A stretch of DNA of 64,000 nt, taken from a virus. The DNA lies in the IMG/VR virus record IMGVR_UViG_3300032050_000010; one strand, written 5' to 3'. Below, in pieces: positions 8,143 to 28,527 of this stretch. A program made the translations under genes and the position numbers. Positions within the stretch are counted from its first letter, which is position 1. Each line of letters begins with the position of its first letter. The notes beneath the pieces were generated by a model. It was not told the DNA's origin. It did no database searches and saw only the letters and a list, made by a program, of their open reading frames with translations.

Positions 8143-8494
8143 AAGAGCTGAGATCTTTATAAAGGTTATTGCGTGGCGGATTGTATCCACCACGCTTAGC
8201 TTCTTTGTCATCTATCATTTTACAGGTAGCGTGGCGACAACAACGCACGCACTTGCAATCGGAACAAGCATAGGAATAGTGTCCCAGTGGCTGTTTGAGA
8301 TGACGTGGGACACGTTTATACGGAGCAGATTGAGACATGCCCTTTCAGGACAACAAGGTAGAATTGATCGGTTACTACGGTGGAGACGAGGCACACGCGA
8401 TGTCAGCGTGGACGAGCACCAGCAGGGATCTGACGGAGGAGAAGCGTGGAAGGATCCCAACTCTCCTGAAAATGCTGGCCGAGAATGGACATGA
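8135..8494 (+). CDS. small membrane protein, DUF2061-like
   Basis: KVIAWRIVSTTLSFFVIYHFTGS...WLFEMTW resembles DUF2061; TTG start; 3' end overlaps thyX. Confidence 0.5.
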   Translation: MSRRAEIFIKVIAWRIVSTTLSFFVIYHFTGSVATTTHALAIGTSIGIVSQWLFEMTWDTFIRSRLRHALSGQQGRIDRLLRWRRGTRDVSVDEHQQGSDGGEAWKDPNSPENAGREWT

Positions 8495-9005
8495 GACACC
8501 CTTCGAGAAGTCAAGCCTGCACTTCCTGGTCACTGTCGATGCTGCAACTCACATCCATCTCCTGAAGCACAGGATCGGTGTCTCGATCAACGGCGAGTCA
8601 GCGCGGTACAAGGAACTTCGAGATGACAAGTATTACCTGCCGAAGGATTGGTCGCTCGAAGAGCAGGCGAAGTACATCGCCTTCATGGAGGACGCACTCA
8701 TGCGTTACCACGATGCTCTTGAACGCTTCGTCGAGGATGGCATGAGCCGCAAGCGTGCCAAGGAAAGTGCCCGGTTCTACCTGCCCTACGGCAACCAGAT
8801 CACGATGGACATCATGTTCAACTGGCGCTCCTTCCACCACTTCCTCGAGCTGCGGATGAAGCCAGATGCCCAGCGTGAAGTCCGTGAGTTATCAGAGCAG
8901 ATGCTCCAGCTTGTCCGTGACATTCCTGGTAACCCGTTCAAGCACACGCTAGAAGCGTTTGGTTATGTTGTAAAACCTAAAGAAATATTCTACCATAGTG
9001 TGTGA
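8337..9005 (+). CDS. thyX: FAD-dependent thymidylate synthase
   Basis: GHETPFE, KHRIGVSINGESARY (Ser retained), KESARFYLP, NWRSFHHFLELR, AQREVR. Confidence 0.9.
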   Translation: MPFQDNKVELIGYYGGDEAHAMSAWTSTSRDLTEEKRGRIPTLLKMLAENGHETPFEKSSLHFLVTVDAATHIHLLKHRIGVSINGESARYKELRDDKYYLPKDWSLEEQAKYIAFMEDALMRYHDALERFVEDGMSRKRAKESARFYLPYGNQITMDIMFNWRSFHHFLELRMKPDAQREVRELSEQMLQLVRDIPGNPFKHTLEAFGYVVKPKEIFYHSV

Positions 9006-9433
9006 ACGCACCTAAGTCACCCTACAACCTGATCCAAGAGACAGTGCAGTACGATCCATGGCGCGTCCTGGTCGTCTGTATTTTCTGTAATCTAACAAAG
9101 CGTGTCGTCGCAGAGCCCTACATGTGGCAGTTCTTCGATCGATGGCCCACAGCATCGGCAGCATCCCATGCAGATCCTGCTGAGATCCGTGACATGATCG
9201 CTATTCTTGGTCTTGCAGATCGACGAAGCAAGACGCTGGTCAAGCTATCGCAGGCGTACGTGCAGTGGAACGGGGTTGATGTAAGATCTCTACCAGGCGT
9301 GGGTGAGTACGCTGCAGCAGCTTACGACATCTTCTGCCTGCACCGCTGGGCACAGATCCCAGAGCCCAAGGACGGCGCGTTGAAGAACTACTGGAAGTGG
9401 ATTAACGGAAAGGAGGAAAGTCAAATTGCCTGA
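9002..9433 (+). CDS. MBD4-like HhH-GPD G:T/G:U mismatch DNA glycosylase
   Basis: SPYNLIQE..DPWRVLV..N.T, LGL..RR.KT..K.S, LPGVGEY, YDIFC, PKDGALKNY; collinear with the MBD4 catalytic domain. Confidence 0.85.
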   Translation: MNAPKSPYNLIQETVQYDPWRVLVVCIFCNLTKRVVAEPYMWQFFDRWPTASAASHADPAEIRDMIAILGLADRRSKTLVKLSQAYVQWNGVDVRSLPGVGEYAAAAYDIFCLHRWAQIPEPKDGALKNYWKWINGKEESQIA

Positions 9434-10235
9434 AGGACCTGAAGTCAAGATTGTATCTGAGTCGCTTGGCCGCGCGTTGCAAGGTCGGGCAATCGTCGGC
9501 ATCAACTATTTGGGCGGCCGCTACGCGAAGCACGGGCCTCCTGAGGGACACGCAGAAATTTCATCGGAGCTGCCCCAGAATGTGTCTGTCACATCTTGTA
9601 AGGGCAAGTTTATATACCTAACACTCCAAAATAATTGGGTAATCTGGAACACTCTGGGTATGACGGGTGGCTGGTCAAAGACGCAGCACAAACACAGCAG
9701 AGCGCAGTTTCTACTCGACGACGGGACATCTGTCTTCTTCAACGATCCACGCAACTTCGGCACGCTGAAGTACGTCCACGGGCTTGATGCACTTCAAGAG
9801 AAGTTGGATGAGCTTGGGCCCGACATGCTGGCAGAGGATGTTTCGGACGACTTGTTCATCAGACGGATGCGGAAGAAGAATAAGCGTGTGATCACAGAGA
9901 GCCTGATGGACCAGAAGGTGATCTGCGGTGTGGGCAACTACCTCAAATCTGAGAGCCTCTATTTCGCCGGGATCTCCCCTATGCGTCATGTCAACACCAT
10001 GACAGATGAAGAGCTGTCTCGGCTCAACCAGACGATTAAGGCAGTCATCCGTGCATCCTACCAGACAGGCGGCGCGACGATCTACACATTCCAGGGGTTC
10101 GACGGCGAGAAAGGACAATACAGTCGCCGCTTCGCTGTTTATAATCAAGACAAGGATCCTAAAGGGTGGGATGTGAAATCCTTCACCTCACCCGAGGGCC
10201 GCACAACATTCTGGGTTCCAGAGGAGCAAACATGA
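9426..10235 (+). CDS. Fpg/Nei DNA glycosylase/AP lyase, zincless finger type
   Basis: N-terminal PEGPEV, KGKF, LGMTG, DPRNFG, LMDQKVICGVGNYLKSE, GRTTFW; no Cys zinc finger. Confidence 0.92.
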   Translation: MPEGPEVKIVSESLGRALQGRAIVGINYLGGRYAKHGPPEGHAEISSELPQNVSVTSCKGKFIYLTLQNNWVIWNTLGMTGGWSKTQHKHSRAQFLLDDGTSVFFNDPRNFGTLKYVHGLDALQEKLDELGPDMLAEDVSDDLFIRRMRKKNKRVITESLMDQKVICGVGNYLKSESLYFAGISPMRHVNTMTDEELSRLNQTIKAVIRASYQTGGATIYTFQGFDGEKGQYSRRFAVYNQDKDPKGWDVKSFTSPEGRTTFWVPEEQT

Positions 10236-10459
10236 GTTACAGGCTATCAGATGAGACAATTGGGCAGATCGCTAAGCTTCTACAGGTCGCGATCATCACG
10301 GGCACTGACATCGTTGACAACCTTCGCACGATCCGCCTACGTGTAGGTGACGGTGAGCAGCTTGAGCCTACTGCAGATTACCTCGAGAACTTCGAGCGCA
10401 ATCTCAACAGGATGATCGAGTCACTCGCAGAGCAGACGAACACCAACCAGAGTGAGTGA
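10232..10459 (+). CDS. hypothetical protein
   Basis: GAGGAG RBS; ATGA overlap with the Nei stop (MSYRLSDETIG...). Confidence 0.7.
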   Translation: MSYRLSDETIGQIAKLLQVAIITGTDIVDNLRTIRLRVGDGEQLEPTADYLENFERNLNRMIESLAEQTNTNQSE

Positions 10460-10836
10460 CAATGGATAAGCTCGACCAGATGTTCCAGATGCGTAAGGAG
10501 TTCATGGCAGCGTTGTCTGCTCATGTCCCTAATGCATACCCACAGCAACCGATCGATCTCAGCAGCAAGCAGTCACAGCAGCACTTCAGAGATCTTGCTC
10601 TCCGCGGTGTTGAGGAGATCTTCGAGGCGCTCCAGCACTTGAAGAACACGAAGCCGCATCGTGTGACTGACATCACAGATCCAGTCGATGTTGAGGCGTT
10701 CAAGGAAGAGATGGTCGATGCTTTCAACTTCTTCTTCACGCTTCTAATCCTGATGGACGTCGATGCTGAAGATCTCTACGAGGTCTTCAAGAAGAAGGAT
10801 CAGATCATTCACGACCGCATCAAGAACAGGTACTAA
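10456..10836 (+). CDS. all-alpha NTP pyrophosphatase (MazG/dimeric dUTPase-like)
   Basis: EEIFEAL ... KEEMVDAFNF (EExxE / EExxD) pattern, end K...I..RI...Y. Confidence 0.75.
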   Translation: MTMDKLDQMFQMRKEFMAALSAHVPNAYPQQPIDLSSKQSQQHFRDLALRGVEEIFEALQHLKNTKPHRVTDITDPVDVEAFKEEMVDAFNFFFTLLILMDVDAEDLYEVFKKKDQIIHDRIKNRY

Positions 10837-11786
10837 TGGACATCAAGAAGATACTACAGCGTCAGAAGGAGTTCTCTAATCTCTTCTATGACTCGTCTAA
10901 CTTTGACGACGACAAGCGTGAGGAGATGACAAAGTCGTTCGCTCTGGCACTCCACGCTGAAGTGGCGGATCTCGTCAGCTCGATCAACTTCAAAGATCAC
11001 CACGCAAATCGACGGACACCGGATCGGGAGAAGATCCTGTACGAGTCGATTGACGTGATGAGGTACCTCCTGGCGATCATGAATGTGTGGGGGTATGAAG
11101 CTGATGAAGTTGAGACAGCTTTCAACGACAAGGACACCTTCCTGCACATGCGTCATCGAGTTGAAAACGCAAAGTGGGACGGTCGTCCTGTACTAATTGT
11201 CGATGTCGATGATGTCATCGCACACTTTAGGAAGGATTACTTTGAGTGGCTTCGAGACAGTCATGACATTGATATTCCTCTTGATTATCCTGAGTACTAT
11301 GCGTCCTCTCCCCTGAAGGAGCGCGGGATCAATCCAGAGGCGTCGTTCAAGGATTTCATCAGCGAGCGTCGTCTCCGTAAAATTGAGCCAATCGAAGGTG
11401 TCCGTGCAGTTCTAAAAGCAGCCCAAGAGCTAGGCTTCTGGGTGCAGTTGCTGACTGCTCGTCCTGACCAGAACTTGATCTGTCTCTACGACACCTACCA
11501 CTGGATCTCTGAGATGGGCGTACCATTTGATGGCCTCGCCTTCAGCGGCGAGAAGTACAGGTGGATCGTGCAGAGCCAGTTCTACGGACACGTTGCAGCA
11601 TGCATCGATGACTCACCAAAGCACGCTGCAGAGTACGCAAATCACGGTTTGCTTGTACTCTCACCTGCATTGTCTTATAATGCATCATTGGCTGGCACTT
11701 CTGGTGTCACTCGATACGAAGATCCTGATCAACTACTTCTACAACTAATTCAAATCAAAGAGGAAATCAATGCCACAAGACACTAA
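10836..11786 (+). CDS. MazG-like NTP pyrophosphatase fused to a HAD 5'(3')-nucleotidase
   Basis: N-terminal EVADL...YESIDVMRY; C-terminal IVDVDDVIA, LTAR, IDDSP, YN. Confidence 0.8.
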   Translation: MDIKKILQRQKEFSNLFYDSSNFDDDKREEMTKSFALALHAEVADLVSSINFKDHHANRRTPDREKILYESIDVMRYLLAIMNVWGYEADEVETAFNDKDTFLHMRHRVENAKWDGRPVLIVDVDDVIAHFRKDYFEWLRDSHDIDIPLDYPEYYASSPLKERGINPEASFKDFISERRLRKIEPIEGVRAVLKAAQELGFWVQLLTARPDQNLICLYDTYHWISEMGVPFDGLAFSGEKYRWIVQSQFYGHVAACIDDSPKHAAEYANHGLLVLSPALSYNASLAGTSGVTRYEDPDQLLLQLIQIKEEINATRH

Positions 11787-12720
11787 TCTCAAGCCCATCA
11801 CTCTTCCTATGGCGATCCGTTTCGGCGAGGAGCCAACTACCGAGTTCGTCAACAGCCTTGATGCACTTAAGCTCGAGCTTGTTGATGCACCAGATCCCAA
11901 GTCGATCCGCCAGGCTGTCTACTGCTTCGTTAAGTCGACCTGGGCAGACCAGCACGTTCCTTACAAGGACGCAACTGAGGCTGAGCTTAGCAAGACACTT
12001 GAGGACGTCTTCGCAGGTCGTGCGCTCCCAGCAGCGATGGAGCTGATCGGTCTCACCTTCCTCGTGGGTGGCATCGACACGCAGACTGTAACGCATCTCA
12101 TCCGTCACCGTGCAGGTTCCTTCGCAGCGCAGTGCACCGGTGACCGTTGGCTTTCACACGAGCGCAGCCTTGTTCCTGGTTCCATCCAGAACAGCCCGGA
12201 GTTCTACGCTCGCTGGCAGGCACACGTCCAGGAGGCAAAGCAGCTCTACACGGACATGGTCGACTCCAAGCAGATCAGTCTGATGGATGCTCGTCACGTC
12301 CTTCCTAAGTGCCTCGAGACGTTCTACTACATGCGTATGAACATCCGCGACGCATTTGGTTTCATCAAGCAACGCCAGGACAAGCAGATCCAGCCTGAGG
12401 AGGACAACATGCTTGCAGCGCTCATGGCACGCGAGATCCTTCGCGTCTTCCCTGAGGCACACGTGGCAATCAACCTCCGTGAGCCTGCCTGGCACTACAT
12501 CAAGACGTTCCGGAATGGCACTGGTACGAACCTCTACTGGCCCGATGAGGACAGCGAGAAGCACCTCACCTACCACCCAGACGACACGATCTATCAGGCA
12601 ACACGTGACGACATGAACGGCACAGGTGGTGGTGTCCCTCACTTCCGGAAGCTCTGGAACGAGACACTTGCTGAGATTGACACGATCGTCACCAACTACA
12701 AGAACACACGGGGCATTTAA
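11770..12720 (+). CDS. divergent ThyX-fold flavoprotein
   Basis: THLIRHRAGSFAAQCTGDR, DARHVLP, N..D..GFIKQR; motif Ser replaced by Cys; C-terminal extension. Confidence 0.75.
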   Translation: MPQDTNLKPITLPMAIRFGEEPTTEFVNSLDALKLELVDAPDPKSIRQAVYCFVKSTWADQHVPYKDATEAELSKTLEDVFAGRALPAAMELIGLTFLVGGIDTQTVTHLIRHRAGSFAAQCTGDRWLSHERSLVPGSIQNSPEFYARWQAHVQEAKQLYTDMVDSKQISLMDARHVLPKCLETFYYMRMNIRDAFGFIKQRQDKQIQPEEDNMLAALMAREILRVFPEAHVAINLREPAWHYIKTFRNGTGTNLYWPDEDSEKHLTYHPDDTIYQATRDDMNGTGGGVPHFRKLWNETLAEIDTIVTNYKNTRGI

Positions 12721-12763
12721 TACTTAGTTGGGCACTTTATATTAAAGAGAAGAGCCCAACTGA

Positions 12764-13849: not shown

Positions 13850-13906
13850 ATACTTGACAAGAGCTAAGCTTCGTGATATTTAGCTTTGTAGTTTACGAGG
13901 CAGGAA

Positions 13907-14125: not shown

Positions 14126-14171
14126 TTTTTTATTGAATGTTTTAGAATGTCAAGCATATATAGAGACAGGC

Positions 14172-14276
14172 GCGTAACGCAGTTTTTGGTGATCAGAATA
14201 ATCACCAGTTCAGTTTAAACAGTTAGCTGTTAGAGTTTGATCCCGTAAGTGGTGTTCACGTGCGGGATTTTTTCTT
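14172..14276 (+). promoter_or_regulatory. structured leader or possible small RNA ending in a terminator-like hairpin
   Basis: four consecutive hairpins downstream of ATATATA (14156-14162); the last, ATCCCG..CGGGAT, is followed by a U-tract. Confidence 0.45.
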
Positions 14277-18917: not shown

Positions 18918-18959
18918 ACACCGCACCGGGCGCATGTAGTATTGCTTAGAGGCAATAAC

Positions 18960-19403
18960 ATGAACAACGTCTATATCGCAAGTGGTTGGTTTTCTCCAGA
19001 GTGGCTCCAGGAAGTTGAGGACATTAAGACTGTCCTCGAGGATCTCAAACTCGATTACTTCTCTCCCAAGGATTATGCGATCGCTGAGGCAACTGCAAGC
19101 AACGACACGCAGAAGCAGATCTTTGATGGCAACGTCAAACACCTTGACATCTGTGATTGGATGATCTGCAACACCCGCAACAAGGACATGGGTTCAATCT
19201 GGGAGGCAGGCTATTTCTACGCTCGCAACAAGCCCATCGTCTACTTCTGCGCTGGCCTTCCACCCGGTGCCAAGTTCAATCTCATGCTGTCAGCAAGCGG
19301 CGTCGCTGTCTGCACTTCTCTCGATGATCTCCGTGAGTACCTGACACACTGCAAGCGTGAAGGTAAGCTGATCACTCGCAACTACAGCGGTTTGATCGAG
19401 TAA
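18960..19403 (+). CDS. nucleoside 2-deoxyribosyltransferase / nucleotide N-glycosidase family
   Basis: VYIASGWF, FSP, IFDGN, DMGSIWEAGY (catalytic Glu), NLML; promoter TTGAAC-17-TAGTAT (18914-18942). Confidence 0.85.
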   Translation: MNNVYIASGWFSPEWLQEVEDIKTVLEDLKLDYFSPKDYAIAEATASNDTQKQIFDGNVKHLDICDWMICNTRNKDMGSIWEAGYFYARNKPIVYFCAGLPPGAKFNLMLSASGVAVCTSLDDLREYLTHCKREGKLITRNYSGLIE

Positions 19404-19412: not shown

Positions 19413-19452
19413 TGTGCGCTCCTGGTGGATAGTTATCTGCTAGGAGCGCACA
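19413..19452 (+). promoter_or_regulatory. RBS-occluding hairpin with a late-type promoter at its apex
   Basis: TGTGCGCTCCT / AGGAGCGCACA 11-bp perfect stem covering AGGAG and the A of ATG; ATAGTTA at 19429-19435. Confidence 0.7.
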
Positions 19453-20232: not shown

Positions 20233-21213
20233 ATGAAGATACTCATTACTGGTCACCGAGGTTTCATTGCATCTAACCTTCCACCTGCATTCGCTGATCT
20301 CGATCACGAAGTTGTCGATCCCAGCCAGCTCAGGCTGACACACAAGCTGCCGACAGGTGAGCACTGCGTCTATCGTAACAGTGAGGATGACTGGGCGCGC
20401 GAGATCAAGCGGCTCGGCGTCGATGTAGTTGTCCACAATGCAGCAGCAGTGGGCACCGATGTCGTCGCGCTCAATCCTAGCGATGCGACGCTGTCCAACG
20501 TGACAGGAACCTACAACATCTGCCGCGCTGCTGAGAAAGCACGCGCAGCCGTCCTCTACCTCGGAACGACAGTCATCTATAACACAGATCTGTATCAGGG
20601 CTCCTGGATCGCTGAGCGCTCCTCGCACGGCCCACAGACGCTCTACGGATCTCTGAAGCTGGCAGGTGAGTACATCGTCCGTGCACACAGCACGAAGTGG
20701 TCGATCGTCCGGCCCCTCTTCTGCTACGGCGGCGTGGGTGACAACAACTCACTGATCGCGAAGGGGTTCTTCGGCGCTGCACACGGCAAGGAGAAGATCG
20801 ACATGTTCCTCGATCCCAAGAAGATCAAGGATTACATGCGCGTCGAGGATTTCTGCGATGCGGTGGCAACTGTGGTCGATAAGGAGCTCTGGAACGATGA
20901 CTGGAACGTCGCTGCGGAGACGCCTGAGAACACAGGCAGGATCGTCGAGATGATGAGTGAGATCTCGTGCAAGGATCTAAAGGGTGTGGTAAAATGGCAC
21001 CCAGGAACCGACTACTTGGGTAACCATCGACTAAGCTCACAGAAGTTCAGGGATGCTTCTGGTTGGACACCAAAGTTCGACCTATATGGTGGCTTGGAAA
21101 AGTCGTGGAATGACATCCAGCGTAATCTGGGTTCCACGGATTATAATCCTCTGCGATATCTGGAAGATGCCAAGAAGCGCGGCATCGACCTCACACAATT
21201 CTTCAACCGGTGA
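20233..21213 (+). CDS. NAD-dependent NDP-sugar epimerase/dehydratase (extended SDR)
   Basis: ITGHRGFIA, HNAA, YGSLK (YxxxK); promoter GTGTAA-17-TATAAT, leaderless. Confidence 0.85.
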   Translation: MKILITGHRGFIASNLPPAFADLDHEVVDPSQLRLTHKLPTGEHCVYRNSEDDWAREIKRLGVDVVVHNAAAVGTDVVALNPSDATLSNVTGTYNICRAAEKARAAVLYLGTTVIYNTDLYQGSWIAERSSHGPQTLYGSLKLAGEYIVRAHSTKWSIVRPLFCYGGVGDNNSLIAKGFFGAAHGKEKIDMFLDPKKIKDYMRVEDFCDAVATVVDKELWNDDWNVAAETPENTGRIVEMMSEISCKDLKGVVKWHPGTDYLGNHRLSSQKFRDASGWTPKFDLYGGLEKSWNDIQRNLGSTDYNPLRYLEDAKKRGIDLTQFFNR

Positions 21214-21219
21214 AATAAC

Positions 21220-24200
21220 ATGAGTATCATTCGACCTCCGGATCGGTTTGTGGGCCTTCATGCCCACTCCGGTTTCTCGACCATGGACGGCCTCGGCTAT
21301 CCCGCCCAGCACATCGACTTCGTGCTGAAGAACGGCATGGATGCCTGGGCGTTGACTGACCACGGCAACGGCAGTGGCCTTGCCCACGCACAGTCACATG
21401 CCAAGAAGATGAAGAAGGCGGGCCAGAAGTACCGTCAGCTGAACGGGGTCGAGTTCTACTTCGTTCCATCACTGAAGAACTGGGCAGAGCAGTATCAAGA
21501 TCACAAGGACGCAGTCGCTGCTGCTCGCTCTGAGAAGAAGTCGAAGGAGGCGACTGACATCGACGCCGACGATGAGGCAGGTGCGGGTCACATCATCGAG
21601 AATGAGGATGAGACAAAGGACGCGTCATCACTCGAAGTGAAGGATGACGAGTGGAAGCGTCGCTACCACCTCGTTGTGATTGCTAAGGATAAGCGTGGCC
21701 TGTCCAACCTCTTCACGCTGGTCAAGCGGTCATTCAAGGAGGGGTACTATCGTTTCCCTCGGATTGACTTCGACATGCTCAAGCAGCACGGTGAAGGGCT
21801 TGTCGTCAGCACAGCCTGCATCGGTGGCATCATGGCGAACCGCGTCCTCCGCGGACAGGCGATGCACAAGTCAGATGCTGAGATCCAGCACGAGCTCAAG
21901 AACCTGACGGATCGGTTTGTGGACGCCGTCGGCCTCGAGAACTTCAACCTCGAGATCCAGTTCAACAAGCTGCAGGCACAGCACGACGTCAATCGGCACC
22001 TGATCGATCTGCACAAGAGCACAGGCGTCCCGCTGGTGGCGACCTGCGATAGTCACTATCCCACTCCTGACAAGTGGAAGACGCGCGAGCTCTATAAGAA
22101 GCTGGCGTGGATGAACGCAAAGGAGGAACCCAAGCCCCTCCCAGCATTCGATGAGCTGAAGTGCGAGCTCTACCCAAAGAACGCCGAGCAGATGTGGGAG
22201 GAGTTCAATCGACATACTGATGCCTACACATTCTATCAAGGCAGCGAGGAGCTGGTTCGAGATGCGATCGAGCGGACGCACGACATCGCATGGCAGCAGT
22301 GTGAGGACGTCTGGGTCGATACAGGCGCCAAGCTCCCAGTTTTCGCCACGCCTGAGAAGACAGAGTTCCAGCAGCTGGTGGATCTCGTCAAGGAGCGGAT
22401 GGGCGAGATGGGGCTGCATGAAAATCCCGAGTACATGGCGCGTGTGAAGGAGGAACTCTCAGACATCAAGCACCTGGGACACGCATCTTACTTCCTCACA
22501 ATGTACAAGATCTTCCACCGTGCTAAAGAGCGGACGCTCCTCGGGCCAGGTCGTGGATCGGCACCCGGTTCTCTCGTCAACTACATCCTTGGGATTACAC
22601 AGATTGATCCACTTCCGTTCGGCCTCCTCTGGAATCGCTTCCTTGGTCGGCATCGTGTGTCTTGGCCCGATATCGACTCCGATGCTGGTGATCGTGACGT
22701 TCTTATTGACGCGGCACGTGAGCTCTTCGGTGACGATGCTGTCATTCCCGTCTCCAACTTCAACACCCTGAAGCTGAAGTCGCTGGTGAAGGACGTCGCG
22801 AAGTTCTTCAACGTTCCGTTCGATGAGGTCAATGCGGTGACAGGACCGCTTCAGGACGAGGTCATGCCTCACGCTAAGGATGATGACCAGGAGAAGTCGG
22901 TCTTCGTCCTCAAGCACGATGACTGCATGAAGTACTCACCTGCTTACAATGCATTCATGACGAAGTACCCCGAGGTGGAGGAGCACGTTAATGCGCTCTT
23001 CATGGAGAACCGTTCGATCGGTCGTCATGCAGGCGGCGTCCTCGTTGCAGAACCCAAGGCGTTGGCTGAAGGCATGCCCATCATCGGTGTTCGCGGTGAA
23101 TTGCAGACGCCGTGGACAGAAGGTATGAACTTCCGCAACCTGGAGGACAACGGCTTCCTCAAGTTCGACTTCCTCGGCCTAACACTGCTCAAGGACGTAG
23201 AGAACTGCATCAAGCGGATCCTGATCAAACAGGGTGTCAAGAACCCGACATTCAGCCAGATCAAGGATTTCTTCGATGAGCATCTCAACTGCCGAACGGT
23301 CAAGCAGGATGATCAGCAGGTTTGGAAGCATGTCTATCACGAGGGTCGGTTCGTCGGTGTCTTCCAGTTCACAGCTGACGGTGCACGTAAGTTTTGCCTC
23401 GATGCGAAGCCCACAAACATCGGTGAGCTGGCAGCACTGACAGCAATCTACCGACCAGGCCCACTGAAGGCAAACGTCCACAAGCTGTATGTCCAGGCAA
23501 AGCGGGATGCCTCGAAGATCAAGTACGACCATCCAGTCATCCAGGAAGTGCTAGGGCCCACGTTCGGTTACGTTGTCTTCCAGGAACAGTTCATGATGCT
23601 GGCGCAGAAGCTGGCAGGGTTCTCTCCTGGTGAGGCTGACCAGCTCCGCAAGACGCTGGTCAAGAAGTCGCTGGACACGCTGGGCAAGAAGTCATCTGAG
23701 AAGGAGGCAGCGCGGAAGCAGTTCATCGACGGTGCTCTGGCACTGCACGGTGTGCCTGAGAAGGTGACTGGCCCGCTCTGGGACACGATCGAGGCTTTCT
23801 CGGTGTACGGCTTCAACAAGTCGCACTCCGTGTCCTACGCGATCGATTCCTACTATGCAGGATGGCTCCACACGCACTACGAGAAGGAGTGGTTGGCAAC
23901 AATCCTGCAGTCTGAGACAGGCAATCCCAAGGGCCTGGCAAAGGCTATTGCCGAGATCAAGGCAATCGGTTATAAGTTCTCGCAGGTCGACATCAACTAC
24001 TCAGGTACCGAGTGGACGTACTCTGATGAGATCCAGGCGTTCGTTCCGCCGCTGACATCTGTCAAGGGCCTAGGCGACTCAGCAGTGAGTGAGATCATGG
24101 AGAACAGGCCCTACCGTGCGCTGGATGACCTCCTGTTCGATGCAGAAGGTGAGTGGCGCCACTCCAAGCTGAACAAGAGCTGCCTTGAGTCGCTGATCCT

Positions 24201-24783
24201 CACTGAGAGCCTGGGTTCGCTGCAGGAGTTCAAGGACGAGCGTCTCAACAATCACAATCAGCTCCACAAGATGATCATCGAGAACTATGACACGCTCCGC
24301 AAGGGTCGCACAGGAATGACCAAGACGGCCACCAAGAAGTGGGTAAAGGAGCACGGTAAAGAGCCCGTGATCATCGACCAGCTGATCGAGGCAACAGCGG
24401 ATGTCCAAGATTGGAACCGCTACGAGAAGATCAAGAACTTCGTGGAGATCTTGACCACGGCGTCAGAAGAACTACTATTCCCACCCACCGTGATGGCAAA
24501 GATTGATCGTTCTAACGTCCCGTCTGCAATGCAGATCTCACCAGGATCGAAAGCAGTTGTCTGGTTCTGTGCGCAGGACTGGGTCAAGAAGCAGACAAAG
24601 AACGGCAAGACATTCTACACAGCATTCGCTGTTGACAATAACAGTGACACTGCAAGGATCCGTGTGTGGGGCACATTTAAAGAAGAGCCCGAGCGATACA
24701 CTATGTGGCTAGCTGAGGTAGAATATGATGCTAACTGGGGTATGTCAACCTCAGCAATGAAAATGCGAAAGATCGAGGTGTAA
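21220..24783 (+). CDS. dnaE: DNA polymerase III alpha subunit (C family)
   Basis: PHP motifs HAHS, TDHG, CDSHY; GPGRGSA, PDIDSD, KFDFLGL, YRPGP, YGFNKSHS. Confidence 0.95.
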   Translation: MSIIRPPDRFVGLHAHSGFSTMDGLGYPAQHIDFVLKNGMDAWALTDHGNGSGLAHAQSHAKKMKKAGQKYRQLNGVEFYFVPSLKNWAEQYQDHKDAVAAARSEKKSKEATDIDADDEAGAGHIIENEDETKDASSLEVKDDEWKRRYHLVVIAKDKRGLSNLFTLVKRSFKEGYYRFPRIDFDMLKQHGEGLVVSTACIGGIMANRVLRGQAMHKSDAEIQHELKNLTDRFVDAVGLENFNLEIQFNKLQAQHDVNRHLIDLHKSTGVPLVATCDSHYPTPDKWKTRELYKKLAWMNAKEEPKPLPAFDELKCELYPKNAEQMWEEFNRHTDAYTFYQGSEELVRDAIERTHDIAWQQCEDVWVDTGAKLPVFATPEKTEFQQLVDLVKERMGEMGLHENPEYMARVKEELSDIKHLGHASYFLTMYKIFHRAKERTLLGPGRGSAPGSLVNYILGITQIDPLPFGLLWNRFLGRHRVSWPDIDSDAGDRDVLIDAARELFGDDAVIPVSNFNTLKLKSLVKDVAKFFNVPFDEVNAVTGPLQDEVMPHAKDDDQEKSVFVLKHDDCMKYSPAYNAFMTKYPEVEEHVNALFMENRSIGRHAGGVLVAEPKALAEGMPIIGVRGELQTPWTEGMNFRNLEDNGFLKFDFLGLTLLKDVENCIKRILIKQGVKNPTFSQIKDFFDEHLNCRTVKQDDQQVWKHVYHEGRFVGVFQFTADGARKFCLDAKPTNIGELAALTAIYRPGPLKANVHKLYVQAKRDASKIKYDHPVIQEVLGPTFGYVVFQEQFMMLAQKLAGFSPGEADQLRKTLVKKSLDTLGKKSSEKEAARKQFIDGALALHGVPEKVTGPLWDTIEAFSVYGFNKSHSVSYAIDSYYAGWLHTHYEKEWLATILQSETGNPKGLAKAIAEIKAIGYKFSQVDINYSGTEWTYSDEIQAFVPPLTSVKGLGDSAVSEIMENRPYRALDDLLFDAEGEWRHSKLNKSCLESLILTESLGSLQEFKDERLNNHNQLHKMIIENYDTLRKGRTGMTKTATKKWVKEHGKEPVIIDQLIEATADVQDWNRYEKIKNFVEILTTASEELLFPPTVMAKIDRSNVPSAMQISPGSKAVVWFCAQDWVKKQTKNGKTFYTAFAVDNNSDTARIRVWGTFKEEPERYTMWLAEVEYDANWGMSTSAMKMRKIEV

Positions 24784-24784
24784 T

Positions 24785-25693
24785 TTGAAGTTCAATCTAA
24801 AGACAGTTGTGCTAGAAGGTGTGGATTGCAGCGGCAAGACAACACTGTTTAGGAGCTTGCATCGTGCAACAGGCTTCAAGTGGAATATCCACGATCGAAG
24901 TGCTCTCTCGATGCTCTGCTATGCAGTCATGTACGGAAGAGATGTTGACCACTGGCGGCAGCTTCTCTTGGAAGAGATCAGCGATCTGAACAATGTGATC
25001 GTTGTGCTCATGCCCCCACTGGCCACCATCAAGGATCGCCTTGCTGAAAGAGGCGACGAGTTTCAAGATCAAGTGACGATTGAGAAGTTGTACACCATCT
25101 TTGAGGATGAGGTTTCACGTCTCAGCGCATACCCTAACGTCTTAGTTTGCGCGCAATCAAAAGCTTCTAGCGATGACATCGCACGGTGGCTGCTAAACTA
25201 CGAGCGGCAGACATACAGTCGACTTGCAGAGATGACGCACGATCATGCGAGGATCAAGCTGTCTGGTGAAGCGCCTTTCCTAAAGATGACGTGGGAAGAC
25301 ACTGACTTCAAGACGCTCAGCACAAAGGCACTCTTCTACGAACCTGAGCTTGAGTACTACGAAGCAACACGCAAGAAGCTTATTGAAAAGATCCAAGCAG
25401 AGCTGGCTGGACAGAATGAGTACGAGATGAAGCAGGATCTCAAGTCGCGACGGTTTGTCATGACACAGGATAGTTGCATCTCCTATGCACACTTCATGTA
25501 TCGTGGCGGCGTGCTTCACGCCAACATCGTGTGCAGATCTTCTGAGGTGTCGCGTATCTTCCCAAATGACATCCACTTCATCGGTCACATGGGTCAGACA
25601 GCCCGACGTGAGCTCGGCCTCACCGTTGAGACACCCGTGAGGTTTAATCTCACTCTCGACTCAGCACATGTAATCTTTCAACCTACGCATTAA
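24785..25693 (+). CDS. dNMP kinase fused to a thymidylate-synthase-fold (dCMP-type) domain
   Basis: EGVDCSGKTT, HDRS..S...Y, RL..RGD; C-terminal SRR, SCIS, CRSSEVSRIFPND, SAH. Confidence 0.75.
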   Translation: MKFNLKTVVLEGVDCSGKTTLFRSLHRATGFKWNIHDRSALSMLCYAVMYGRDVDHWRQLLLEEISDLNNVIVVLMPPLATIKDRLAERGDEFQDQVTIEKLYTIFEDEVSRLSAYPNVLVCAQSKASSDDIARWLLNYERQTYSRLAEMTHDHARIKLSGEAPFLKMTWEDTDFKTLSTKALFYEPELEYYEATRKKLIEKIQAELAGQNEYEMKQDLKSRRFVMTQDSCISYAHFMYRGGVLHANIVCRSSEVSRIFPNDIHFIGHMGQTARRELGLTVETPVRFNLTLDSAHVIFQPTH

Positions 25694-25710
25694 AGTACTT
25701 AGAGGCATAA

Positions 25711-26703
25711 ATGAAGAGAGCATTAGTAACGGGCGGCGCCGGCTTCATTGGGTCAAATCTGACGCACGCGCTTGTCGATGATGGCTGGACAGTTGACGTA
25801 GTAGACGACATGTCGAACGGCCACCTCAACCTTCTTGATAATTTGAGCTATCGAGTTTTTCTGCCGGGCATGGCAGAAATCTATGAAGCACAGAAGCAGA
25901 GAACTTCGAAAGAAGTTTACGTGCATGAGTGTGACTTTGCACACCCAGTCATTCTAGACAGAATTGCTCGGAAGCAATACGACGTCGTCTTCCACCAGGC
26001 AGCTGTTCCGCAAGTTTCCTACTCTGTCGAGCAGCCTACGAAGACGACAGACGTCAATCTTCTGAGAAGCATTGAGCTTCTCCATTCTTGCGTCGGCAAC
26101 GTCGACAAGGTGGTTGTTGCATCATCATCAGCTGTCTATGGTAATACGGAGACACTGCCGACAACTGAAGAGACGCCACGTAACCCAAGATCTCCATACG
26201 GCCTCCAGAAGAGTGCTCTTGAGGATTTCTGTCGACTATTTGGTGAGCTCTACGATCTAGACACCGTCTGTCTGCGTTATTTCAACGTTTTTGGAGCAGG
26301 CCAGTACGGCGACTCACCTTATTCCACAGCAGTGTCTGCATGGTGTGATGCAATCAAACACGGACGAACACTTAGATCAGATGGTGACGGATCGCAGTCC
26401 CGTGACATGTGTCATGTTGACAATGTTGTAAGTGCCAATATTCTTGCTGCCAAGACGCCGAACCGCCTCATGGGCAAAGGGTACAACATCTGCTGCGGTG
26501 AGCGGACGACAAACCTTGAGATCCTCCAGCACCTCACAGGAGCATTTCCAACAGTTGAAGTTCGTCACGCTCCCTGGCGTCCAGGTGATGTTAAGCACAC
26601 ACTGGGTGACTGGTCAGCAGCAAATCGTGACTTCGGATACCAACCAATAGTTAAGTTCTGGGATGGGCTTGAGAAGACGCTCGCCTGGTGGGAGCTCAAG
26701 TAA
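25711..26703 (+). CDS. NAD-dependent NDP-sugar 4-epimerase (GalE/WbpP-like)
   Basis: VTGGAGFIGS, FHQAA, ASSSAVYG, SPYGLQK, LRYFNVFG, RPGDVKH. Confidence 0.92.
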   Translation: MKRALVTGGAGFIGSNLTHALVDDGWTVDVVDDMSNGHLNLLDNLSYRVFLPGMAEIYEAQKQRTSKEVYVHECDFAHPVILDRIARKQYDVVFHQAAVPQVSYSVEQPTKTTDVNLLRSIELLHSCVGNVDKVVVASSSAVYGNTETLPTTEETPRNPRSPYGLQKSALEDFCRLFGELYDLDTVCLRYFNVFGAGQYGDSPYSTAVSAWCDAIKHGRTLRSDGDGSQSRDMCHVDNVVSANILAAKTPNRLMGKGYNICCGERTTNLEILQHLTGAFPTVEVRHAPWRPGDVKHTLGDWSAANRDFGYQPIVKFWDGLEKTLAWWELK

Positions 26704-27257
26704 TGCGCATCCCACCAACATTCACTGTCTTCTGTGGGCCTATGATGTCGTCTAAGACGACACGACTGATCGGCGCGGTCGACCGCTTTCGATATCAGAA
26801 CCAGCGTGTCCTTGCATTTAAACCAAAGATGGATAGAAGGTATGCAAAAGAAGAGATCACTACACACAACGGTGGAAAACTTGAAGCTCTCATTGTTAGC
26901 ACTGGTGATGAGATACTACGCCACGTTGACGTATATGAACCAGACGTTGTAGCAGTTGACGAAGCTTTCATGATTGACGGCTCTGCAGACGCACTCATTC
27001 AGATCTACCGTAGAGGCGTGTCTGTCGTTGTGTCGTCGATCGAGATGTCTGCCAGCTGCAACTCTTTCCCAGAGATTGAGAAGATCCTTCCCTGGGCGAC
27101 AAAGGTTGAGAAGTGCACTGCCGTCTGTGTTGTATGCGGCGAGGATGCACCGTACACACAGAAGAAGATCAATGACATCGCAGAGATCACAGTTGGGGGT
27201 TCTGAGCTCTATGAGCCTCGATGCTGGTCACATCATGCGACCGCGCGCGAAGCGTGA
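26703..27257 (+). CDS. tdk: thymidine kinase (type II)
   Basis: GPMMSSKT, VDEAF, CVVCG...VGG.ELYEPRC; TAATG coupling. Confidence 0.92.
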   Translation: MRIPPTFTVFCGPMMSSKTTRLIGAVDRFRYQNQRVLAFKPKMDRRYAKEEITTHNGGKLEALIVSTGDEILRHVDVYEPDVVAVDEAFMIDGSADALIQIYRRGVSVVVSSIEMSASCNSFPEIEKILPWATKVEKCTAVCVVCGEDAPYTQKKINDIAEITVGGSELYEPRCWSHHATAREA

Positions 27258-27277
27258 TACATTAGTATCGAGGTAGC

Positions 27278-28114
27278 ATGCTAGATCCTAACAGCATCAA
27301 TCTGGTCATTTATCATGCGAGTTGCACAGATGGATTTGGAGCAGCTTGGGCAGCGTGGAAGTTACTTGGCGACCGTGCCGAATACTACGCTGCAAAGTAC
27401 GGAGAAGCACCGCCAGATGTGTCTGGAAAGAATGTCATAGTCGTAGATTTCTCATATGATAATGCTACTACCAAGCGCTTGATGAAGGAGGCAAAGGGGT
27501 TTTTCGTCCTTGACCACCACAAGTCGGCGATGGTAGAGCTCCACGATGTGTCCTGCACACACTTCGACATGAACCACAGCGGTGCAATGCTGGCCTGGAA
27601 GTTCTTCCATCCCGGCAAGGAAGCCCCACGGATGATCAAGCACATCGAGGATCGTGACCTCTGGAAGTGGGAGATCCCGTACTCGAAGGAGTTCTCAGCA
27701 GCATTTGACATGGTTCCCTTCGACTTCGAGGAATTTGATAAGTACCTCGACGACTCAGCAGTCGACGATGCTCAGGAGCGTGGTGCCTACATCCTCGCAT
27801 ATTCTAAGACAGTGATCTCCAAGATCTCCAAGCACGCAGCACCACGCAAGCTGAACGGCAAGGATGTCCTGGTGGTGAACTCACCCCACTGGATGTCCGA
27901 GATCGGAAATGCGCTGTCACCTAAGTGCGACTTCGCGGTGATCTGGTACTACGACCACGACACACGCCAGGTGAAAGTGAGCCTCCGCGCTCACCATGAT
28001 GATGCTGATGTGAGCGAGGTCGCCAAGAAGTACGGCGGAGGAGGACATCGCAAAGCTGCAGGTTTCGCTCTTGCGCCCAACATCAGTATTGAGACAATCT
28101 TCGACAAGGAGTAG
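27278..28114 (+). CDS. DHH/DHHA1 phosphoesterase
   Basis: YH..C.DG, VDF, LDHH, DRDLW, SLR, GGGGH..AAG. Confidence 0.9.
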   Translation: MLDPNSINLVIYHASCTDGFGAAWAAWKLLGDRAEYYAAKYGEAPPDVSGKNVIVVDFSYDNATTKRLMKEAKGFFVLDHHKSAMVELHDVSCTHFDMNHSGAMLAWKFFHPGKEAPRMIKHIEDRDLWKWEIPYSKEFSAAFDMVPFDFEEFDKYLDDSAVDDAQERGAYILAYSKTVISKISKHAAPRKLNGKDVLVVNSPHWMSEIGNALSPKCDFAVIWYYDHDTRQVKVSLRAHHDDADVSEVAKKYGGGGHRKAAGFALAPNISIETIFDKE

Positions 28115-28116
28115 AG

Positions 28117-28527
28117 ATGCGTCCAGGCTGGGATGAAGTGTGGATGAACATCGCACGTGAAGTATCACGCAGGTCAGCAGACGACAAGTACAAAGTTGGA
28201 ACTGTGATAGTCACTGGAGACAACACACAAGTGCTGTCGCTAGGATACAACGGCGACCACGCAGGTGGCCCAAATTGCAGAGAGTCGAGTGACCCTGGCG
28301 AGTCAGGTTTTATCCATGCCGAGATGAACGCGCTGATCAAGCTTGACTACAATAACCTAAAGCGACGTGTTATGTACGTTACGTTGTCGCCCTGTAAGAT
28401 GTGCGCTAAAGCAATCATCAATGCAGGTATCAACGAGCTCGTGTACGGCGAAGATTATAGAGATCTCAGCGGTATTGACATTCTCACAGGCGCTGGGATA
28501 AAAGTTAGAAAAATAACTCAAACTTAG
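28117..28527 (+). CDS. dCMP deaminase
   Basis: GYNG, HAEMNA, TLSPCKMC. Confidence 0.9.
   Translation: MRPGWDEVWMNIAREVSRRSADDKYKVGTVIVTGDNTQVLSLGYNGDHAGGPNCRESSDPGESGFIHAEMNALIKLDYNNLKRRVMYVTLSPCKMCAKAIINAGINELVYGEDYRDLSGIDILTGAGIKVRKITQT

What the first reader, a model, noticed from the sequence alone, without database searches (positions are those of the whole stretch)
8337..28527. Candidate undescribed cytosine (sugar-)hypermodification pathway built around the DNA polymerase
Seen: besides a canonical ThyX and TK, the phage carries a second altered ThyX (11770), a MazG-like enzyme and a MazG-HAD fusion (10456-11786), a nucleotide N-glycosidase/NDT (18960), and a dNMP kinase fused to a TS-fold domain (24785). 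Two NDP-sugar epimerases lie either side of the dnaE plus kinase-TS pair. No DNA glycosyltransferase is visible in the window. Known: phages that replace a base typically pair a TS-family modifier, a dedicated kinase and a dNTPase that removes the canonical nucleotide (T4 gp42/gp1/gp56). Inference: a modified dCMP, possibly sugar-bearing, is made at nucleotide level, phosphorylated by the fused kinase and incorporated by the phage DnaE. This combination does not match a pathway I recognise.
Basis: partly seen in the sequence, partly recalled or inferred. Interest (0 to 1): 0.88.

Follow-up and report, generated by a model that had tools for sequence, protein, structure and literature searches.

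The report
Phage kinase–mini-TS cytosine-modification module
An uncultured T4-like giant phage carries, next to its DNA polymerase, a conserved gene set built around a kinase fused to a miniature thymidylate-synthase-like enzyme and an unusual second ThyX; it most likely makes a chemically modified cytosine for the phage DNA, and the same set occurs in a culturable Geobacillus phage where this can be tested.

Summary
The 302-aa protein after DnaE is a YorR/TMK-type kinase fused to a 160-aa minimal thymidylate-synthase fold. That fold keeps the catalytic Cys, the phosphate-binding Arg/Ser residues and an invariant Asp at the base-selecting position, which marks it as dCMP-type. Its nearest solved relatives are phage HY126 AfhB (a flavin-dependent 5-hydroxy-dCMP synthase) and T4 dCMP hydroxymethylase.

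ThyX2 defines a large family with an invariant Cys-x-Gly-Asp substrate loop. Six of six genomes of this phage lineage also keep a canonical ThyX.

A core set of deoxynucleotidase, NDT, kinase, ThyX2 and mini-TS beside a DnaE polymerase recurs in three unrelated phage lineages. The fusions differ between them: kinase–TS, kinase–NDT, or separate genes with ThyX2 abutting mini-TS. One of these lineages includes cultured Geobacillus phage GR1.

My best reading is pre-replicative C5 modification of dCMP (about 55%). This would be a new variant of the TS-homologue plus kinase systems of T4 and RB69. The product is unknown.

The sugar part is not supported. The two SDR epimerases occur only in the T4-like lineage, no glycosyltransferase is conserved with the module, and a separate glycan locus exists in this phage.

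First-stage readers of this scan had already noted the kinase–TS fusion and ThyX2 on this same genome.

The parts
8337..9005 (+). ThyX1, canonical flavin-dependent thymidylate synthase (KHR..S....SxRY motif)
   Evidence: Thy1 E 1.7e-36. TIGR02170 104.5 bits, above the 87.9 cut-off. PDB ThyX hits E 1e-11 to 1e-9. A canonical ThyX is also present elsewhere in 5 of 5 long relatives.
9002..10235 (+). HhH-GPD glycosylase (9002-9433) and Fpg/Nei glycosylase (9426-10235), often upstream of the ThyX2 sub-module
   Evidence: Pfam. Within 10 kb of ThyX2 in 37 and 46 of 80 loci respectively.
10166..10459 (+). Conserved 97-aa ORF of unknown function that precedes the MazG genes
   Evidence: No family hit. 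Present in 69 of 80 ThyX2 loci.
10456..10836 (+). MazG-like all-alpha NTP pyrophosphohydrolase (candidate dCTPase/dUTPase)
   Evidence: phrog_12184 E 6e-14. Relatives in cultured phages are annotated dUTPase or dCTP pyrophosphatase. Present in 76 of 80 ThyX2 loci.
10836..11786 (+). Fusion of a MazG/dimeric-dUTPase-like NTP pyrophosphatase (res 1-103) with an NT5C-type HAD 5'-deoxynucleotidase (res 108-305)
   Evidence: dUTPase_2 E 6e-7 and NT5C E 1.5e-8. DVDDV and DD motifs present. Present in 71 of 80 ThyX2 loci.
11770..12720 (+). ThyX2: divergent ThyX paralogue with N- and C-terminal extensions and an invariant A-x-C122-(T/S)-G124-D125-(R/K) loop in place of S-x-R
   Evidence: Thy1 72.7 bits, but TIGR02170 below cut-off. 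Best PDB match of the family profile is the T. maritima S88C mutant 3g4c. C122 and D125 are present in 239 of 239 members.
18942..19403 (+). Nucleoside 2-deoxyribosyltransferase family protein (catalytic Glu in the WEAG motif kept)
   Evidence: PF05014 E 1.3e-16. PDB 6evs NDT E 5e-10. Next to or near ThyX2 in 74 of 80 loci, and in 50 of 50 full-length loci.
20233..21213 (+). Extended SDR (RmlB/RmlD-like, YxxxK present, no dehydratase TDE motif); substrate unknown
   Evidence: Epimerase E 2e-26. Far below every NCBIfam equivalog cut-off. PDB best hit 2hun, E 6e-13.
21220..24783 (+). DnaE-type (Pol III alpha) replicative polymerase
   Evidence: PHP, DNA_pol3_alpha, finger and HHH_6 domains. Adjacent to the kinase-TS gene in most of the 82 loci.
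24785..25693 (+). KinTS: YorR/TMK/dNK-type P-loop kinase (res 1-142) fused to a minimal TS-fold domain (res 143-302). E. coli ThyA equivalents: R222/R223 = R126'/R127', C231 = C146, R251/S252 = R166/S167, E254 = D169, D262 = N177, H295 = H207
   Evidence: Model pLDDT 92.5. Fold matches. The C-domain profile hits only AfhB and T4 dCMP hydroxymethylase in the PDB. hhalign to RB69 gp48 E 2.6e-4. Residue invariance in 78 homologues.
25711..26703 (+). Extended SDR closest to UDP-hexose/HexNAc 4-epimerases (WbgU, WbpP, GalE)
   Evidence: Epimerase E 1.8e-50. PDB 6dnt E 2e-47 and WbgU E 2e-44. Below equivalog cut-offs. Follows KinTS in most T4-like loci.
26688..27257 (+). Thymidine kinase
   Evidence: TK E 8.8e-36. 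Present in 68 of 82 KinTS loci.
27278..28114 (+). DHH/DHHA1 phosphoesterase
   Evidence: Pfam. Present in 52 of 82 loci.
28117..28527 (+). dCMP deaminase
   Evidence: dCMP_cyt_deam_1 E 9e-24. Present in 68 of 82 loci.

Best explanation
The stretch is the nucleotide-precursor and replicase block of an uncultured T4-like jumbo-phage lineage. It has gp23/gp20-type structural genes but a DnaE polymerase.

Embedded in the block is a core set of five functions that travels with a DnaE polymerase in three unrelated phage lineages:
- a 5'-deoxynucleotidase (here NT5C fused to MazG);
- an NDT;
- a YorR-type kinase;
- the Cys/Asp ThyX paralogue (ThyX2);
- a minimal TS-fold protein.

Proposed mechanism, all inferred rather than shown:
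1. The mini-TS domain of the 302-aa protein binds dCMP. Asp262 reads the cytosine; Arg222/223/251 and Ser252 hold the phosphate.
2. Cys231 adds to C6, and a small C5 substituent is installed. This could be hydroxyl, as in AfhB, or a one-carbon group.
3. The chemistry probably uses a flavin, for which ThyX2 is the candidate partner or parallel catalyst.
4. The fused kinase passes the product on towards the triphosphate, and DnaE incorporates it.
5. The MazG-like enzymes, the nucleotidase and dCMP deaminase drain canonical dCTP and dCMP.
6. NDT and TK recycle the deoxyribose.

The two SDR epimerases are lineage-specific additions whose acceptor is unknown. Glycosylation of the base is possible but unproven.
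For: - Fold and catalytic residues of the TS domain. The only PDB sequences its profile finds are 5-hydroxy-dCMP synthase AfhB and T4 dCMP hydroxymethylase. hhalign to RB69 gp48 covers the SRR, Cys, RS, Asp and SAH motifs.
- Both the kinase P-loop/LID residues and the TS residues E188, R222, C231, R240, R251, S252, D262 and H295 are invariant in 78 of 78 homologues.
- The domain ends a few residues after the SAH motif, as AfhB and RB69 gp48 do.
- Published 5hoC clusters place a YorR-like kinase next to the TS homologue and include a MazG-type dCTPase (PMC13326640).
- All six genomes of the lineage that were examined hold two ThyX genes, one canonical and one ThyX2, and the five long relatives have no ThyA.
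- ThyX2's Cys122 and Asp125 are invariant in 239 sequences.
- The core recurs with different fusions. In GR1 and a Bacillus contig the genes are separate and ThyX2 abuts mini-TS just upstream of DnaE. In a roughly 45-kb phage contig the order is kinase-NDT fusion, HD nucleotidase, ThyX2, mini-TS, DnaE.
- That contig's mini-TS hits T4-type gp42 directly by tblastn.
- KinTS is essentially virus-only: one full-length hit in 185,579 species genomes.
Against: - No chemistry is shown and no DNA composition data exist.
- The TS domain is about 60-100 residues shorter than any characterised family member. It is not detected by PF00303, so activity is an inference.
- The D169N signature proposed for 5-hydroxy-dCMP synthases is Glu in this protein. 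Across the family it is mixed: N 36, D 27, E 15.
- The phage keeps a canonical ThyX, TK and dCMP deaminase, and much of the block is ordinary nucleotide metabolism interleaved with DnaJ/DnaK, GMP-reductase-like, dUTPase and PRTase genes in relatives. Synteny within the T4-like lineage alone could therefore be inheritance.
- No glycosyltransferase is conserved with the module.
- MazG substrate specificity is unknown.
Confidence: 0.55

Rival explanations
1. Ordinary precursor metabolism with canonical DNA. KinTS is the phage's dNMP kinase, and its degenerate TS-like domain only binds nucleotides for regulation or channelling. ThyX2 is a second thymidylate synthase. MazG, NT5C, NDT and TK are pool-sanitising and salvage enzymes.
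For: - The block is interleaved with standard nucleotide and chaperone genes in relatives.
- ThyX2 keeps RHR and the dUMP-binding Arg equivalents R175 and R202.
- The T. maritima S88C mutant, deposited as 3g4c, is the best PDB match of the ThyX2 profile; from my own recollection, not checked here, that mutant remains active.
- The TS domain lacks much of the classical fold.
- Restriction-site palindromes are only mildly depleted, which is uninformative.
Against: - Invariance of the catalytic Cys, the Asp and the whole phosphate cradle in 78 of 78 sequences is not expected of a decayed domain.
- Retention of two ThyX types in all six genomes examined argues against redundancy.
- The same genes re-associate in three unrelated lineages with different fusions.
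Confidence: 0.25
2. The module targets thymine or uracil rather than cytosine. ThyX2 converts dUMP to 5-hydroxymethyl-dUMP or another 5-substituted dUMP, the MazG-NT5C fusion removes dTTP and dTMP, and the kinase activates the product, as in SPO1-type hmU phages.
For: - ThyX enzymes act on dUMP.
- NT5C- and YfbR-type nucleotidases favour dUMP and dTMP (general knowledge).
- dCMP deaminase supplies dUMP.
- GR1 carries amidoligase and gamma-glutamylcyclotransferase genes about 10 kb downstream, reminiscent of thymidine hypermodification (PMC8989533).
Against: - The mini-TS base-selecting residue is Asp in 78 of 78 sequences, and also in the GR1-like and 45-kb-contig forms.
- The T4-like lineage keeps a canonical ThyX and TK, which would refill dTMP.
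- ThyX2 gains an invariant Asp in its substrate loop.
Confidence: 0.12
3. One reading: the two SDR enzymes make a special NDP-sugar that ends up on the modified cytosine, so the DNA is glycosylated.
For: - SDR2 directly follows KinTS in most T4-like loci. An SDR lies within five genes downstream in 51 of 70 loci that have enough sequence.
- One sub-lineage has a GT8 between SDR1 and DnaE.
- This phage has two GT4 genes, one matching PF20706 'GT4-conflict'.
- The known 5hoC and 5hmC systems are glycosylated.
Against: - The SDRs are absent from the two other lineages that carry the core.
- GT loci are present in only 3 of 5 long relatives, and tens of kb away from the module.
- The GT4 genes of this phage lie in a nonulosonic-acid and GDP-sugar locus that an unchecked first-stage note places beside tail-fibre genes. 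This fits virion or surface glycosylation at least as well.
Confidence: 0.15

Closest known systems
5-hydroxy-dCMP synthase systems (HY126 AfhB, RB69 gp48, DLP3 gp80) with the adjacent YorR-like kinase (RB69 gp45, DLP3 gp78)
   Same: - TS-superfamily enzyme with a catalytic Cys and the N177D cytosine selector.
- The chain ends just after the SAH motif.
- Best structural and sequence match in the PDB.
- A YorR-type kinase is the immediate partner.
- A MazG-type dCTPase is present in the genome.
- The cluster lies next to the DNA polymerase gene.
   Different: - The TS domain is only about 160 aa (AfhB chains 234-238 aa in the PDB sequence file, 217-234 modelled residues) and is fused to the kinase.
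- The D169N signature is absent here (Glu) and variable across the family.
- There are no arabinose-pathway genes and no conserved glycosyltransferase.
- It is accompanied by ThyX2, NDT and a nucleotidase.
- The polymerase is DnaE, not family B.
T4 hydroxymethylcytosine pathway (gp42 dCMP hydroxymethylase, gp1 dNMP kinase, gp56 dCTPase, cd dCMP deaminase, alpha/beta-GT)
   Same: - The logic is the same: TS homologue plus kinase plus all-alpha NTPase plus dCMP deaminase acting before replication.
- The mini-TS of one lineage hits gp42 by tblastn.
- The profile hits 1b49.
   Different: - The mini-TS has no recognisable folate-binding or C-terminal segment.
- The kinase is YorR/TMK-type, not gp1-type.
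- There are no T4-type DNA glucosyltransferases.
Canonical ThyX (T. maritima TM0449, PBCV-1 A674R) and the ThyX homologue PolB of polyoxin biosynthesis
   Same: - ThyX2 has the Thy1 fold signature, the RHR motif and the Arg residues equivalent to R147 and R174.
   Different: - Ser88 is replaced by an invariant Cys.
- A two-residue insertion adds an invariant Gly-Asp.
- There are about 70-aa N-terminal and 90-aa C-terminal conserved extensions.
- It scores below the TIGR02170 cut-off.
- It is always accompanied by a canonical ThyX in the T4-like lineage.

Membership tests
Thymidylate synthase superfamily (ThyA / dCMP hydroxymethylase / 5hodCMP synthase) | TS alpha/beta fold | tested here: met
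   Model residues 142-301 align to 9iqu (Z 11.7, 152 residues, rmsd 3.2), to MilA 5b6e (Z 11.2) and to ThyA 3v8h (Z 11.2). Foldseek probability 1.0.
Thymidylate synthase superfamily (ThyA / dCMP hydroxymethylase / 5hodCMP synthase) | Catalytic Cys (E. coli C146) with the R126'/R127', R166/S167 phosphate cradle and H207 | tested here: met
   C231, R222/R223, R251/S252 and H295 have the correct spacing (C to R 20 residues, R to D 11). They are invariant in 78 homologues, except R223 at 77 of 78.
Thymidylate synthase superfamily (ThyA / dCMP hydroxymethylase / 5hodCMP synthase) | Reaches the Pfam PF00303 model | tested here: not met
   No Pfam TS hit for the protein. PF00303 finds nothing in five related genomes that carry it.
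dCMP-specific branch of the TS superfamily | Asp at the position of E. coli N177 | tested here: met
   D262 is present in 78 of 78 homologues. It aligns with the Asp of AfhB and of T4 dCMP hydroxymethylase.
5hodCMP synthase (AfhB / RB69 gp48 type) | Asn at the position of E. coli D169 (signature proposed in PMC13326640) | tested here: not met
   Glu254 in the window's protein. Across the family: N 36, D 27, E 15 of 78. The GR1-like form has RSSN; the 45-kb-contig form has RSCD.
5hodCMP synthase (AfhB / RB69 gp48 type) | Bound flavin and O2-dependent hydroxylation | not testable with these tools
   Needs purified protein and 18O2 labelling.
ThyX (flavin-dependent thymidylate synthase), for ThyX2 | Pfam Thy1 domain above the gathering score | tested here: met
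   72.7 bits against a 24.8 cut-off.
ThyX (flavin-dependent thymidylate synthase), for ThyX2 | ThyX motif RHRxxSxxxxSxR and the equivalog score | tested here: not met
   The motif reads RHRAGSFAAQCTGDR: the second Ser is Cys and the Arg is displaced by two residues. TIGR02170 gives 51.7 bits against an 87.9 cut-off.
T4-type pre-replicative cytosine replacement pathway | dCTPase that removes the canonical dCTP | tested here: inconclusive
   Two MazG-like domains are present and conserved. Relatives are annotated dUTPase or dCTP pyrophosphatase. Specificity was not determined.
T4-type pre-replicative cytosine replacement pathway | DNA glycosyltransferase acting on the modified base | tested here: inconclusive
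   None in the window. There are two GT4 genes in a distant sugar locus and a GT8 near DnaE in one sub-lineage. No GT is conserved across the lineage.
Nucleoside 2-deoxyribosyltransferase | PF05014 domain with the catalytic Glu | tested here: met
   61.2 bits against a 28.8 cut-off. The WEAG motif aligns with the WELG motif of 6evs.

The most novel reading that the evidence does not exclude
ThyX2 and the mini-TS protein form a two-part enzyme system not seen before. In it, a ThyX-derived flavoprotein with a new Cys/Asp substrate loop supplies flavin chemistry (a flavin-N5-methylene or flavin-hydroperoxide species) to a stripped-down TS fold that activates dCMP through its cysteine. The product would be a cytosine derivative, or a route to one, that is not among the known 5mC, 5hmC and 5hoC pathways, with a dedicated DnaE-type polymerase to incorporate it.
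Probability: 0.2. Interest if true: 0.9.

Novelty: new variant of a known kind. Interest (0 to 1): 0.72.

Why it matters
Known pre-replicative pyrimidine modifications in phages all start from full-size ThyA homologues. This module has two different features.
- It has a much smaller TS-fold protein, fused or adjacent to its kinase.
- It always comes with a remodelled ThyX that has an invariant Cys and Asp, which suggests the ThyX scaffold has also been recruited for base modification.

The module is widespread in metagenomes:
- about 395 clusters at 50% identity for the mini-TS domain;
- more than 1,200 clusters at 90% identity for ThyX2;
- 131 KinTS-encoding and 172 ThyX2-encoding stretches in IMG/VR.

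It is almost absent from cultured phages, so a common DNA chemistry may be going unseen. This matters for restriction and CRISPR evasion, for sequencing bias in viromes, and as a source of new nucleotide-modifying enzymes.

Geobacillus phage GR1 and its host are in culture, so the question can be tested directly.

Tried and rejected
- **ThyX2 as the lineage's only thymidylate synthase.** I first read it this way because ThyX1 appeared in only 1 of 82 KinTS loci. I rejected this when all five long relatives proved to hold a canonical ThyX elsewhere in the genome.
- **Complex prediction of ThyX2 with the mini-TS domain.** No verdict. This is not evidence either way.
- **ThyX2 monomer model.** Only pLDDT 68, with the substrate loop disordered, so it was not used for active-site reasoning.
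- **Megablast of the region against 50,697 phage records.** No match.
- **tblastn of KinTS against the same phage records.** No match.
- **Upstream flank.** I tried to fetch it with an exact 51-mer in JGI metagenomes and found no match. I used a 99%-identical IMG/VR relative instead.
- **The 248-aa ORF at 19425-20171 as a candidate glycosyltransferase.** No Pfam, PHROG or NCBIfam hit, and only unnamed viral clusters in the Atlas.
- **GR1's annotated 'glycosyltransferase'.** No Pfam or PDB support, and it is unrelated to the 460-aa protein at the analogous place in L004.
- **Residue 254 (N/D/E) against presence of SDR genes.** No clean pattern.
- **Palindrome avoidance in the 164-kb record.** Mild and uninformative: the lowest 4-mers are CTAG 0.70 and CATG 0.79, and GATC is 1.06.
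- **FAD-synthetase-like hit at window 51957-52457.** Absent from five relatives, so not treated as part of the module.

Full report
**Where the window lies.** The window is bases 67,652-131,651 of a 163,948-bp IMG/VR record. The record is labelled provirus, with a CheckV completeness of 49%. Nearly all genes are on the + strand. The structural genes are T4-like: gp23 capsid, gp20 portal, baseplate, gp15 and a T4-type terminase. The replicase, however, is a DnaE-type Pol III alpha. No cultured phage is close. Megablast finds nothing, and the best DnaE match is below 30% identity.

- canonical ThyX1, which passes the TIGR02170 equivalog cut-off;
- a MazG-like protein;
- a MazG/dUTPase_2 + NT5C(HAD) fusion with intact DxD and DD motifs;
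- ThyX2, which carries the Thy1 domain but falls below the equivalog cut-off;
- an NDT whose catalytic Glu aligns with that of the solved NDT 6evs;
- two extended SDRs either side of DnaE and the 302-aa protein;
- TK, a DHH phosphoesterase and dCMP deaminase.

No glycosyltransferase was found among the window ORFs scanned.

**The 302-aa protein (KinTS).**
- *Family size and fold.* It has about 230 full-length homologues in the first search. AlphaFold with 22 of them gives pLDDT 92.5. Residues 1-142 form a dNK/TMK/YorR-type kinase (Z 12-12.8). Residues 142-301 form a minimal TS fold. The best TS-fold matches are HY126 AfhB, a 5-hydroxy-dCMP synthase (9iqu, Z 11.7, 152 residues aligned), MilA (Z 11.2) and a ThyA (Z 11.2).
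- *Sequence relatives.* A profile of the C-terminal domain finds only AfhB (E 0.019) and T4 dCMP hydroxymethylase (E 0.11) among all PDB sequences. It aligns to RB69 gp48 across the SRR, Cys, RS, Asp and SAH motifs (E 2.6e-4).
- *Active-site residues.* The equivalents of the E. coli ThyA residues are R222/R223 (R126'/R127'), C231 (C146), R251/S252 (R166/S167), E254 (D169), D262 (N177) and H295 (H207), with matching spacing. In 78 homologues the kinase P-loop and LID residues, R222, C231, R251, S252, D262 and H295 are all invariant. Position 254 varies: N 36, D 27, E 15. Asp at the N177 position is the established determinant of dCMP over dUMP (PMC13326640).
- *Size.* The domain ends about seven residues after SAH, as AfhB and gp48 do. 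It is 60-100 residues shorter than any characterised family member and is invisible to PF00303.
- *Spread.* An exhaustive profile search finds about 395 clusters at 50% identity. Most are 300-aa fusions and some are 165-170-aa stand-alone forms. Only one full-length hit occurs in 185,579 prokaryotic species genomes.

**ThyX2.**
- The family has more than 1,200 members at 90% clustering.
- It keeps RHR and the Arg residues equivalent to T. maritima R147 and R174.
- The substrate loop reads A-x-C-(T/S)-G-D-(R/K). Cys122 and Asp125 are invariant in 239 of 239 sequences.
- The best PDB hit of the family profile is the T. maritima S88C mutant.
- It also has conserved N- and C-terminal extensions.
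- In five long relatives (200-284 kb, one of them 100% complete) there are always two ThyX genes. One is canonical (129-174 bits) and lies elsewhere; the other is ThyX2-type (66-70 bits) and sits in the module. None has a ThyA. Two types kept side by side argue that ThyX2 does something the canonical enzyme does not.

**Co-occurrence within the T4-like lineage.**
- Around KinTS, in 80 IMG/VR loci plus two others with 10-kb flanks, the counts out of 82 are: DnaE 77, TK 68, dCMP deaminase 68, SDR2 57, DHH 52, NDT 51 and ThyX2 39. The ThyX2 count is limited by the flank length.
- Around ThyX2, out of 80 loci: MazG 76, MazG-HAD 71 and NDT 74. NDT is present in 50 of 50 full-length loci.
- The consensus gene order is Fpg, o97, MazG, MazG-HAD, ThyX2, NDT, (DnaJ/DnaK or SDR1), DnaE, KinTS, SDR2, (GMP-reductase-like), TK, DHH, dCMP deaminase.
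- On its own this could be inherited gene order.

**Recurrence in other lineages.** The stronger evidence comes from two other phage lineages.
- In cultured Geobacillus phage GR1 the order is NDT, thioredoxin, HD nucleotidase, a 459-aa protein, a P-loop kinase (A2 profile E 9e-15), RNase H, an NfsB-type nitroreductase, ThyX2 (46% identical), a 151-aa mini-TS (A3 profile E 2e-8) that starts where ThyX2 ends, and DnaE. GR1 has no other ThyX or ThyA.
- A Bacillus wiedmannii assembly contig has much the same layout as GR1, without the nitroreductase.
- A third lineage, an approximately 45-kb contig, has a kinase-NDT fusion, an HD (YfbR-like) nucleotidase, ThyX2, a 189-aa mini-TS with RSCD...D...SLHVY motifs, and DnaE. 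Its mini-TS hits T4-type gp42 directly by tblastn.
- The same five functions therefore re-associate with a DnaE polymerase under three different fusion arrangements. The nucleotidase role is filled by two unrelated folds, HAD and HD.

**Comparison with known systems.**
- The NAR 2026 paper (PMC13326640) shows that TS homologues of RB69, DLP3, RL38J1 and metaviromic sequences make 5-hydroxy-dCMP with a flavin.
- It also reports that a YorR-like kinase sits next to the TS homologue, that a MazG-type dCTPase is present, and that the cluster abuts the polymerase gene. I confirmed the last point for RB69.
- The present module follows the same logic but differs in several ways: the TS domain is miniature and fused, the D169N signature is not fixed, there are no arabinose genes, and ThyX2, NDT and a nucleotidase are constant companions.
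- I found no paper describing ThyX2 or the fusion. The GR1 paper reports nothing on DNA chemistry.

**The sugar question.**
- SDR2 is closest to UDP-HexNAc/hexose 4-epimerases such as WbgU, WbpP and GalE (E 1e-38 to 1e-47). SDR1 is a distant RmlB/RmlD-like enzyme without the dehydratase motif. Neither reaches any equivalog cut-off.
- Both SDRs are confined to the T4-like lineage.
- GT1 and GT2 genes occur in clusters in 3 of 5 long relatives, tens of kilobases from the module. One sub-lineage has a GT8 next to DnaE.
- In a 99%-identical relative, the 10 kb upstream of the start of this record encode a CMP-sugar cytidylyltransferase, a methyltransferase, an aminotransferase, an SDR, NeuB, Gmd, a UDP-sugar dehydrogenase and two GT4 enzymes. 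One of the GT4s passes PF20706. The first gene of the record itself is the second GT4.
- First-stage notes place this locus beside tail-fibre genes. I could not check that.
- The epimerases therefore have an alternative sink, and DNA glycosylation is neither shown nor excluded.

**Verdict.**
- Most likely (about 55%), the module makes a C5-modified dCMP before replication, with the product still open between hydroxyl, hydroxymethyl and methyl.
- An ordinary-metabolism reading keeps about 25%.
- A thymine-directed reading keeps about 12%.
- The most novel reading not excluded is a ThyX2/mini-TS two-part flavin system, at about 20%. It is a more specific version of the leading reading, not a further alternative.

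First-stage readers of this scan had already noted the fusion and ThyX2 on this same genome. The recurrence in GR1 and in the third lineage, and the dual-ThyX rule, are new here.

Noticed in passing
L092:1-11041 (a 99%-identical relative; corresponds to the 10 kb upstream of the start of G000) and G000:C1:117-1157: A sugar locus containing a CMP-sugar cytidylyltransferase, a methyltransferase, a class IV aminotransferase, an SDR, NeuB, Gmd, a UDP-sugar dehydrogenase, a PD-(D/E)XK nuclease and two GT4 glycosyltransferases, one of which passes PF20706 'GT4-conflict'. IMG/VR cut the 'provirus' record inside this locus.
   Followed up: partly
L198:6561-7481: In a roughly 45-kb phage contig, the YorR/TMK-type kinase is fused to the NDT domain instead of to the mini-TS. 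An HD (YfbR-like) nucleotidase replaces the NT5C domain.
   Followed up: partly
L006, L007, L016, L018, L023, L025, L047, L052, L065-L068, L076, L080, L083 (relatives): The DnaE gene appears as two or three separate ORFs, often with 200-500-aa ORFs between them. This suggests inteins, introns or homing-endonuclease insertions in the polymerase of many relatives. The window's DnaE is one uninterrupted 1187-aa frame.
   Followed up: no
window 28840-29541 and 29538-30161: A 233-aa protein whose C-terminal half resembles the Fe/Mn superoxide dismutase C-domain (E 3.7e-15), and a 207-aa protein of unknown function. They are conserved downstream of the module in 61 and 54 of 82 loci respectively.
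   Followed up: no
window 37865-39460, 40801-41535, 42893-43624: A phage-encoded GroEL-type chaperonin, a sigma-70-type factor and a SpoU-family RNA methyltransferase. Relatives also carry DnaJ and DnaK between NDT and DnaE.
   Followed up: no
G000:C1:162689-163657 (outside the window): A di-haem cytochrome c peroxidase (CCP_MauG, E 1.5e-49) near the right end of the record. It looks like a host gene and may explain the 'provirus' label or mark host flank.
   Followed up: no
window 51957-52457 and 52850-53428: A small nucleotidyltransferase hitting FAD_syn and CTP_transf_like (32.8 bits) lies next to a NUDIX protein. The FAD_syn hit is absent from five long relatives.
   Followed up: partly
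L001:26306-27538 (Geobacillus phage GR1): Amidoligase and gamma-glutamylcyclotransferase genes lie about 10 kb downstream of the ThyX2/mini-TS/DnaE cluster. They could indicate further tailoring of a modified base in GR1.
   Followed up: no
window 57223-57924: A glycoside hydrolase family 46 (chitosanase-like) protein, E 3.6e-21.
   Followed up: no
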